DNA of 55,299 nt, filler included, from Squatina squatina (lineage: Eukaryota), in the NCBI GenBank assembly GCA_031763465.1. It is 4 parts of 4 records of this genome, joined end to end, with 100 filler letters (N's around TTAATTAATTAA, not from the genome) between each part and the next. Parts side by side here need not be neighbours in the genome. Positions count along the whole stretch, not along the records: positions 1 to 15,159 come from JARFOE010000080.1; 3 more parts are not named here. One strand, written 5' to 3'. How positions within the stretch are numbered: position 1 is the first letter of the stretch; each line of letters opens with the position of its first letter. The translations under genes and the position numbers were made by a program. Shown in pieces: positions 14,805 through 15,044 of this stretch. Under the pieces are notes generated by a model. It ran no database searches, had not been told where the DNA came from, and saw only the letters and a list, made by a program, of their open reading frames with translations.

Positions 14805-15044
14805 CAGTGGAAGTAACAGTGCCCAGCGAACACTCCGTTGCGCAGACCATTTTCAGGAAAATCCAGTTCCACTCCGAAGCACATTTCTGGCACAGTAGGC
14901 AATCCGCCCATATACTTTAGCACACCAGCTCCAATTTTGCCACTTGGCAATATAACCTTCACTCTGTGCCCAATCTGTAAATCTAAGATAGAGCGAGGCG
15001 CGTATGCTTTCAGGGGTCGACTGCTTCCGAGATCTGCTGTAAAT
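14805..15044 (-). CDS. Internal coding exon encoding a CAP-Gly domain (gene not identified)
   Basis: Acceptor ttctctctctcacacag, donor gtgagt, 240 nt, phase 2-2, no stops. Translates FTADLGSSRPLKAYAPRSILDLQIGHRVKVILPSGKIGAGVLKYMGGLPTVPEMCFGVELDFPENGLRNGVFAGHCYFH(C/W), fitting the CAP-Gly pattern IG.RV..G.L.Y.G..GVELD..G..(D/N)G...G..YF.C. Not in the ORF track. Confidence 0.85.

What the first reader, a model, noticed from the sequence alone, without database searches (positions are those of the whole stretch)
14805..15044. Hidden symmetric exon encoding a divergent CAP-Gly domain that I cannot assign to a known gene
Seen: a stop-free 240-nt phase 2-2 exon with strong splice sites, missed by the ORF track, carrying the CAP-Gly signature (GVELD..G...G...G..YF). 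Known: tubulin/EB-tail-binding CAP-Gly domains (CLIP-170, p150Glued) use a GKNDG motif; here it reads GLRNG. Inference: I cannot match it to CLIP1-4, DCTN1, KIF13B, CEP350, TBCB, TBCE or CYLD, so it may belong to an uncharacterised CAP-Gly protein with altered ligand specificity, possibly absent from mammals.
Basis: partly seen in the sequence, partly recalled or inferred. Interest (0 to 1): 0.7.

Follow-up and report, generated by a model that had tools for sequence, protein, structure and literature searches.

The report
Unnamed shark CAP-Gly adaptor gene exon
This is a real, spliced exon of an unnamed shark gene from an old animal family; its CAP-Gly domain lacks the residues that normally grip the tubulin tail, so the protein likely acts as a membrane-anchored adaptor for some other partner, and no mammal or bird copy turned up in limited searches.

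Summary
The exon is real: minus strand, 15044-14805, 240 nt, phase 2-2, Pfam CAP-Gly above cut-off. Transcript-like contigs of relatives splice at both ends. It is not hidden: orthologues 73-90% identical are annotated 'uncharacterized' genes of sharks and rays. The protein is about 350 aa: N-terminal amphipathic helix, long predicted coiled coil, disordered linker, C-terminal CAP-Gly. The exon holds three quarters of the domain. It is not an orthologue of any CAP-Gly protein with a solved structure (32 bits at best, against 132-150 for true orthologues). It is the short member of a two-paralogue vertebrate family with relatives in amphioxus, tunicate, molluscs, rotifers and a sea anemone. All 48 family domains aligned lack the Phe, Trp and Asn of the EEY/F pocket; the short form also lost the Lys. 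The best reading is a membrane-anchored adaptor with a CYLD-like, non-EEY/F ligand (inferred, 0.45). Absence from mammals is unproven: 0 of 92 named hits, but that search also missed known teleost members. The apparent SLITRK5-GPC5 neighbourhood rests on an unreliable scaffold. I found no paper on the family.

The parts
14805..15044 (-). Penultimate coding exon (240 nt, phase 2-2) of the unnamed short-form CAP-Gly gene
   Evidence: Sequence; orthologues 73-90% identical; splice joins in relatives' contigs
15045..15064 (-). Splice acceptor: pyrimidine tract and CAG
   Evidence: X5 and X7 join the end of the upstream exon found on G000 contig C889527
14799..14804 (-). Splice donor GTGAGT; the same phase-2 intron position occurs in the long paralogue
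   Evidence: paralogue exon on C326861; X1 joins the canonical last exon here
14978..15010 (-). Family-specific N-terminal extension of the domain (residues 12-22, KAYAPRSILDL)
   Evidence: Conserved in short, long and invertebrate members; AlphaFold pLDDT 76-95 for the matching part of P0003
14807..14974 (-). CAP-Gly core, Pfam model positions 1-51 of 65
   Evidence: fold match Z 11-12 to CAP-Gly structures for the orthologue model
14879..14896 (-). Thr50 to Cys55, where tail-binding CAP-Gly domains have Phe and Trp (p150Glued Phe52, Trp57)
   Evidence: Alignment columns; residue names from passages of PMC11229396
14834..14848 (-). GLRNG in place of GKNDG
15065..15159 (.). Intronic dinucleotide microsatellites; an assembly gap of 2,379 N follows in the genome

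Best explanation
The exon encodes most of the C-terminal CAP-Gly domain of an unnamed protein of about 350 residues, which likely sits on a membrane surface through its N-terminal amphipathic helix and likely uses the domain to bind a protein partner other than the EEY/F tail of tubulin or EB proteins. Shown: the exon, its splicing in relatives, the domain order, family membership and the pocket substitutions. Predicted: the helix (2-25), the long helix (70-148) and the disordered linker (152-259). Inferred: membrane anchoring, coiled-coil oligomer, loss of EEY/F binding, and a CYLD-like partner (a helical or proline-rich peptide). The gene most likely arose from the long ancestral protein by keeping its last coiled-coil segment and CAP-Gly domain and gaining the N-terminal helix. 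Isoform models that skip this in-frame exon or use another last exon would give an anchor without a working domain.
For: Architecture: alignments and the AlphaFold model of the Heterodontus orthologue P0003. One 1,464-nt contig of X5 carries both exon 1 (G000 C760382) and this exon, and 4 of 4 runs join exon 1 to exon 2 (same run, length and depth). Pocket: Phe52 position is F in 22 of 22 CLIP/CEP350-type domains and 0 of 48 family domains; Trp57 position is W in 21 of 22 against 0 of 48; Asn69 position is N in 18 of 22 against 0 of 48; Lys68 position is K/R in 0 of 20 short, 15 of 15 long and 11 of 13 invertebrate members. The K and N of GKNDG support EEY/F binding (PMC9062740, passages). CYLD domains, which also lack these residues, bind NEMO, ubiquitin or helical peptides (PMC8511506 and bioRxiv 2025.09.22.676098, passages). 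N-terminus: the best 18-mer hydrophobic moment exceeds the 99th background percentile (0.50) in 13 of 22 short-form proteins; five ray-finned-type ends and one frog end are hydrophobic instead (Kyte-Doolittle 1.33-1.97); 10 of 10 long or invertebrate ends are neither. The coiled coil matches 5 of 15 long paralogues at 12-20 bits, against at most 3.2 for 10 controls. Isoform models: P0029 lacks the exon; P0007, P0008, P0011, P0016 and X5 use other last exons.
Against: No binding, localisation or tissue data. The helix score is the best of 28 windows compared with single background windows, one of the 13 (Latimeria) lies in the coiled coil, and amphipathic helices also bind proteins. The domain core is as basic (+3.6, mean of 7 sharks/rays) as CLIP-type domains (+3.3), unlike CYLD-like ones (-0.1), which favours some microtubule binding. 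CYLD CAP-Gly1 and 2 are reported to bind microtubules without the canonical motif. Fold matches do not single out CYLD: Z values are tied across CAP-Gly families. The coiled-coil match fails for 10 of 15 long paralogues. In frogs the motif is eroded and Pfam falls below cut-off (24.3 bits), so the domain may be dispensable in some lineages.
Confidence: 0.45

Rival explanations
1. It tethers a membrane organelle to microtubules, binding the lattice or acidic tails electrostatically and regardless of tyrosination.
For: Basic domain core (+2 to +5 in 7 sharks/rays); intact CAP-Gly fold; CYLD CAP-Gly1/2 are reported to bind microtubules without the canonical motif (passages); anchor-spacer-domain layout suits a tether.
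Against: Single domain without the pocket; charge varies from -3 to +8 across 20 short forms; the motif is eroded in frogs.
Confidence: 0.27
2. The N-terminal helix is not a membrane anchor but a protein-binding or import signal, and the CAP-Gly domain of the short paralogue is partly vestigial.
For: Fast divergence outside the domain (mean column identity 34%); motif decay in frogs; isoform models without the exon or with other last exons; a Leucoraja isoform without the helix.
Against: [quoted passage not shown]
Confidence: 0.17
3. It is still a canonical EEY/F reader (plus-end tracker) with a compensated pocket.
For: Both glycines of the motif, the Tyr-Phe pair and the Phe88 position are kept in sharks and rays.
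Against: Phe52, Trp57, Lys68 and Asn69 positions are all replaced; K and N are needed for tracking and EEY/F binding.
Confidence: 0.07
4. It is a divergent orthologue of a named gene (databases label some members CLIP4, CEP350-like or CLIP2).
For: Automatic names on Rhincodon, Latimeria, Protopterus, Huso and Branchiostoma proteins.
Against: G000 holds separate CEP350, CLIP4 and CLIP2 domains scoring 132, 148 and 150 bits to their mammalian structures; the shark orthologue's whole domain reaches 32 bits; grouping short forms with CEP350-type domains is rejected (p-AU 0.003); no ankyrin or USP domain.
Confidence: 0.03

Closest known systems
RefSeq/UniRef uncharacterized shark and ray genes (LOC119968391, LOC122563731, LOC129709600, LOC116988613, chimaera LOC103187315)
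   Same: Orthologues: 73-90% identity over the exon for sharks and rays, same layout.
   Different: Nothing essential; they are predictions without a name or function. No paper held six family LOC ids searched.
Long paralogue (chimaera LOC103186410, gar LOC107079474, Xenopus LOC108708387) and invertebrate members
   Same: Same extended C-terminal CAP-Gly domain, same phase-2 intron in G000, part of the coiled coil.
   Different: 400-2,000 aa, no N-terminal amphipathic helix, keeps G[KR]H[DN]G, has Leu/Val where the short form has Arg at the position of CYLD Leu475.
CYLD CAP-Gly domains
   Same: No Phe/Trp/Asn pocket; similar loop after the third strand; highest non-family profile scores (62.0 bits against 60.2 for other CAP-Gly domains).
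   Different: No USP domain; one domain, not three; basic rather than neutral; Arg at the Leu475 position argues against CAP-Gly3-type ubiquitin binding. The score margin is small and the tree does not resolve a sister relation.
CLIP-170/CLIP-115, p150Glued, KIF13B, CEP350, CLIP3/CLIP4
   Same: CAP-Gly fold (Z 11-12, rmsd 1.4-2.3 A over 70-83 residues); coiled coil plus CAP-Gly; KIF13B and CLIP4 also end in or near a CAP-Gly domain.
   Different: EEY/F pocket absent; CLIP/CEP350-type domains form a separate branch (98/93; p150 and KIF13B were not in that tree). CLIP3 reaches membranes by a palmitoylated tail (recalled), not an N-terminal helix.

Membership tests
CAP-Gly domain (PF01302) | Profile score above the gathering cut-off | tested here: met
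   33.4 bits against 26.5 for the exon; 48-57 bits for 7 orthologues with the whole domain
CAP-Gly domain (PF01302) | CAP-Gly fold | tested here: met
   Orthologue model, pLDDT 89-97 over the domain; top matches all CAP-Gly
EEY/F-binding CAP-Gly proteins (CLIP-170, p150Glued type) | GKNDG with Lys and Asn | tested here: not met
   GLRNG; K/R in 0 of 20 and N in 0 of 20 short forms
EEY/F-binding CAP-Gly proteins (CLIP-170, p150Glued type) | Aromatic cluster including Phe52 and Trp57 | tested here: not met
   Thr and Cys in the exon; 0 of 48 family domains keep either at the aligned column
EEY/F-binding CAP-Gly proteins (CLIP-170, p150Glued type) | Binding to tyrosinated tubulin or EB tails | not testable with these tools
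   Needs a binding assay
CLIP3/CLIP4 | Ankyrin repeats and 2-3 CAP-Gly domains | tested here: not met
   One CAP-Gly and no ankyrin in 9 of 9 orthologues; true CLIP4 domain lies on C115
CEP350 / CCDC187-like | Orthology of the domain | tested here: not met
   31 bits against 132 for G000's own CEP350; one clade rejected, p-AU 0.003. The label CCDC187-like for L037 is recalled
CYLD | USP catalytic domain with three CAP-Gly domains | tested here: not met
   No UCH hit in orthologues or family members scanned
CYLD | Domain is sister to CYLD CAP-Gly domains | tested here: inconclusive
   Slightly highest outside scores; deep forks unsupported on 94 columns
Unnamed animal family with extended C-terminal CAP-Gly | Recovered by a profile not built from it | tested here: met
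   Invertebrate-only profile: 20 short forms 76.5-107.9 bits, 15 long 130-141, 44 other CAP-Gly domains at most 62.0. The truncated window exon itself scores 61.5, so the test rests on its full-length orthologues
Unnamed animal family with extended C-terminal CAP-Gly | One clade in a tree | tested here: inconclusive
   Short 89/87, long + most invertebrates 97/92; family as one clade in 28% of bootstrap trees, not rejected (p-AU 0.445)
Unnamed animal family with extended C-terminal CAP-Gly | Shared intron position | tested here: met
   Phase-2 intron at the same place after the Tyr-Phe pair in both G000 paralogues
Membrane-binding amphipathic helix proteins | Cationic helix with high hydrophobic moment that partitions into membranes | tested here: inconclusive
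   Sequence features met in sharks (moment 0.54-0.67, charge +3/+4); partitioning not testable

The most novel reading that the evidence does not exclude
An undescribed CAP-Gly family as old as cnidarians and bilaterians, split into two vertebrate paralogues and lost from mammals and birds, whose short member became a membrane-anchored tether with a rebuilt, tyrosination-blind binding pocket that can be switched off by skipping this one symmetric exon.
Probability: 0.25. Interest if true: 0.65.

Novelty: new variant of a known kind. Interest (0 to 1): 0.45.

Why it matters
CAP-Gly domains are the textbook readers of tubulin tyrosination, and the known repertoire comes from mammals and model organisms. 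This family adds an old branch with a differently built pocket and a natural series of motif states (GKHDG, GQHDG, GLRNG, eroded), which would let one test what the fold binds without the EEY/F pocket. Xenopus and teleost members exist, so it is open to experiment. It also corrects automatic labels (CLIP4, CEP350-like, CLIP2) on these proteins. It does not overturn a principle: CYLD already shows non-canonical CAP-Gly ligands.

Tried and rejected
Last coding exon: not found in the window, in 214 kb around it or in G000; nor the alternative last exon of X5 in the window; nor the coiled-coil exons. The assembly has 1.15 million contigs, so this is not evidence of loss. Synteny: C80 shows SLITRK1, SLITRK6-like, SLITRK5-like, this exon, miR-17~92, GPC5-like and GPC6-like in a row (SLITRK5/6 and GPC5/6 names recalled). 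I rejected it as evidence: the region is 123 pieces of median 1,056 bp joined mostly by 100-N gaps, with lone TCP1 and guanylate-cyclase exons in the same interval, and orthologues lie on 21-24 Mb records in turtles, coelacanth and chimaera. Homodimer prediction of residues 66-150: no verdict (score 0.03). No RNA holder was on record as RNA, so tissue and level are unknown. First tree did not finish its careful search; four rows were dropped before it, and 36 more for the second. A script timed out. Rfam: nothing in the window. Earlier findings of this scan: none. Literature: searches for family LOC ids, CAP-Gly with phylogenetic/Nematostella, with gene loss terms and with shark/coelacanth terms listed no paper on the family; subscription journals and supplements were not searched, and expression tables there may list these genes.

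Full report
Observation. The window is a pack of four stretches; the finding lies at the end of the first (1-15159), which is G000:C80:9398455-9413613. On the minus strand, 15044-14805 is a 240-nt exon in phase 2-2 with a stop-free 79-codon frame. Both splice sites are in the top 1% of sites in the region by simple consensus scores. Pfam CAP-Gly scores 33.4 bits (cut-off 26.5) over model positions 1-51 of 65, so the domain is finished by the next exon.

Splicing. Four public runs were laid on the exon and its flanks. X1, X5 and X7 (RNA by the tool's guess; relatives, not this individual) leave the genomic sequence and run into other exons. Upstream, X5 and X7 join the end of an exon that G000 holds on contig C889527; X1 joins a different upstream exon. 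Downstream, X1 joins the last exon seen in annotated orthologues and X5 another one; X7's contig ends inside the exon. X11 runs through both introns. A 1,464-nt contig of X5 also carries exon 1 from contig C760382, and 4 of 4 runs join exon 1 to exon 2. Five of the six exon differences listed are synonymous (the table left 17 rows out).

The gene. All 9 proteins found among 44 candidates are shark or ray proteins 73-90% identical to the exon, nearly all named 'uncharacterized'. G000 holds four more exons on small unplaced contigs with matching phases where they meet; the coiled-coil exons and the last exon were not found. The AlphaFold model of the Heterodontus orthologue has a helix at 2-25, a long helix at 70-148, disorder at 152-259 and a confident domain to the C-terminus, which matches CAP-Gly structures at Z 11-12 with no family standing out.

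Not a named gene. G000's own CEP350, CLIP4 and CLIP2 domains score 132, 148 and 150 bits against their mammalian structures; the whole domain of the closest shark orthologue reaches 32. The family search of G000 scored 16 CAP-Gly matches, this exon and its paralogue being two of them. An AU test rejects joining the short forms to CEP350-type domains (p 0.003).

The family. A profile search of 1.84 billion representatives gave 485 hits, of which 150 were listed; I looked up names for 20 of them, and more were named. A short form (about 260-390 aa) occurs in sharks, rays, chimaera, coelacanth, lungfish, bowfin, sturgeon, teleosts, axolotl, frogs and turtles. A long paralogue occurs in sharks, rays, chimaera, bichir, sturgeon, gar, bowfin, coelacanth, frogs, caecilians, lizards and turtles. 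Long members occur in amphioxus, a tunicate, molluscs, a brachiopod, an annelid, rotifers and Nematostella, and probably arthropods (their place in the tree is unstable). A profile from 13 invertebrates alone scores 20 short forms at 76.5-107.9 bits and 44 other CAP-Gly domains at 62.0 or less. Both G000 paralogues have the same phase-2 intron. The tree on 94 columns supports the short clade (89/87) and long + most invertebrates (97/92), does not resolve the family as one clade, and does not reject it.

Mammals. None of the 92 named hits of 99 is a mammal, bird or crocodilian, and no solved mammalian CAP-Gly domain exceeds 50 bits against the family profile. But one search scored only the 7,996 best candidates and missed the teleost members known, so absence is not shown. 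From memory, the human CAP-Gly set holds no such protein.

The pocket. Papers seen in passages: EEY/F binding depends on the GKNDG loop (PMC13406575; bioRxiv 2022.08.09.503328), on its K and N (PMC9062740), next to an aromatic cluster with Phe52, Trp57 and Phe88 in p150Glued (PMC11229396). Weisbrich 2007 was not read. In the alignment Phe, Trp and Asn are kept in 22, 21 and 18 of 22 CLIP/CEP350-type domains and in 0 of 48 family domains. The Lys position is K/R in 26 of 28 long and invertebrate members and 0 of 20 short ones. The exon has Thr, Cys, Leu and Arg at these four places. CYLD domains lack the same residues and bind NEMO, ubiquitin, helical peptides or a bacterial protein, and two of them microtubules (PMC8511506; bioRxiv 2025.09.22.676098; PMC13623971; passages only). 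The short form has Arg or Lys at the position of CYLD Leu475 in 20 of 20, which that paper links to no CAP-Gly3-type ubiquitin binding; the long form has Leu in 13 of 15, a lead only.

The N-terminus. Shark ends form a cationic, Trp-containing helix with hydrophobic moment 0.54-0.67 (background 99th percentile 0.50); 13 of 22 short forms pass that mark, several others are plainly hydrophobic, and none of 10 long or invertebrate ends shows either. The comparison favours the best window, so it is suggestive only. The short form's coiled coil matches the long paralogue's in 5 of 15. I infer that the short gene is a truncated duplicate that gained a membrane-binding helix.

Mechanism. Most likely (0.45) a membrane-anchored adaptor: helix on a membrane surface, coiled-coil spacer, flexible linker, and a CAP-Gly domain that binds a non-EEY/F partner. 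A tyrosination-blind microtubule tether (0.27) is the main rival, because the domain stays basic. A partly vestigial domain (0.17), a canonical reader (0.07) and a known orthologue (0.03) follow. The symmetric phase matters: the Pristis model P0029 skips this exon in frame, and other models and X5 swap the last exon; these are database models and single contigs, not measured isoforms.

A trap. C80 places the exon between SLITRK5-like and miR-17~92/GPC5-like genes. The scaffold is a chain of 1-kb pieces with stray exons of TCP1 and guanylate cyclase in the same interval, and orthologues lie on small chromosomes elsewhere, so I do not use it.

Verdict. Real exon, known domain, already predicted gene, apparently undescribed family with a rebuilt pocket. 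Searches listed no paper on it. Novelty: new variant of a known kind. Interest 0.45.

Noticed in passing
G000:C326861:1-156, C444072, C73:2468663, C73298 (L025, L030, L031, L033): Exons of the long paralogue in the same genome; in bichir and sturgeon it is fused in annotation with glycerol kinase (P0285, P0286), which suggests adjacency.
   Followed up: partly
window 1158-1398 (+): A 79-codon open frame ending in a stop, starting at an assembly gap; looks like the end of a last exon; no Pfam family.
   Followed up: partly
L018:1386-2139 (G000:C80:9330386-9331139): Complete miR-17~92-type cluster of six hairpins, on the strand opposite to the nearby GPC5-like exon.
   Followed up: partly
L016:5515-5676 and L016:9610-9804: Lone exons of a TCP1 chaperonin and a soluble guanylate cyclase beta on small pieces, probably misplaced by scaffolding.
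   Followed up: partly
L046 (G000:C409535:171-254): Another CAP-Gly half-exon with a GQHDG motif that I could not assign.
   Followed up: no
window 46971-48098 (+): Two long open frames resembling an MGAT4-type glycosyltransferase (name recalled), interrupted near 47546-47601.
   Followed up: no
window 35086-35412 (+) and 54507-55226 (+): Open frames that look like coding exons of other genes in the pack's later stretches.
   Followed up: no
window 8970-9485 and L015:5327-6013: Open-frame fragments resembling Harbinger-type transposase remnants (resemblance recalled).
   Followed up: no
proteins P0035, P0049, P0084, P0121, P0153, P0118: Unnamed proteins with up to 18 tandem CAP-Gly domains, or CAP-Gly joined to PARP, tyrosine phosphatase/kinase/PDZ or SRCR domains.
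   Followed up: no
frog short-form proteins P0040, P0063, P0067, P0089: The motif loop is eroded and Pfam no longer passes for P0040, while the N-terminal extension and C-terminal strand stay conserved.
   Followed up: partly
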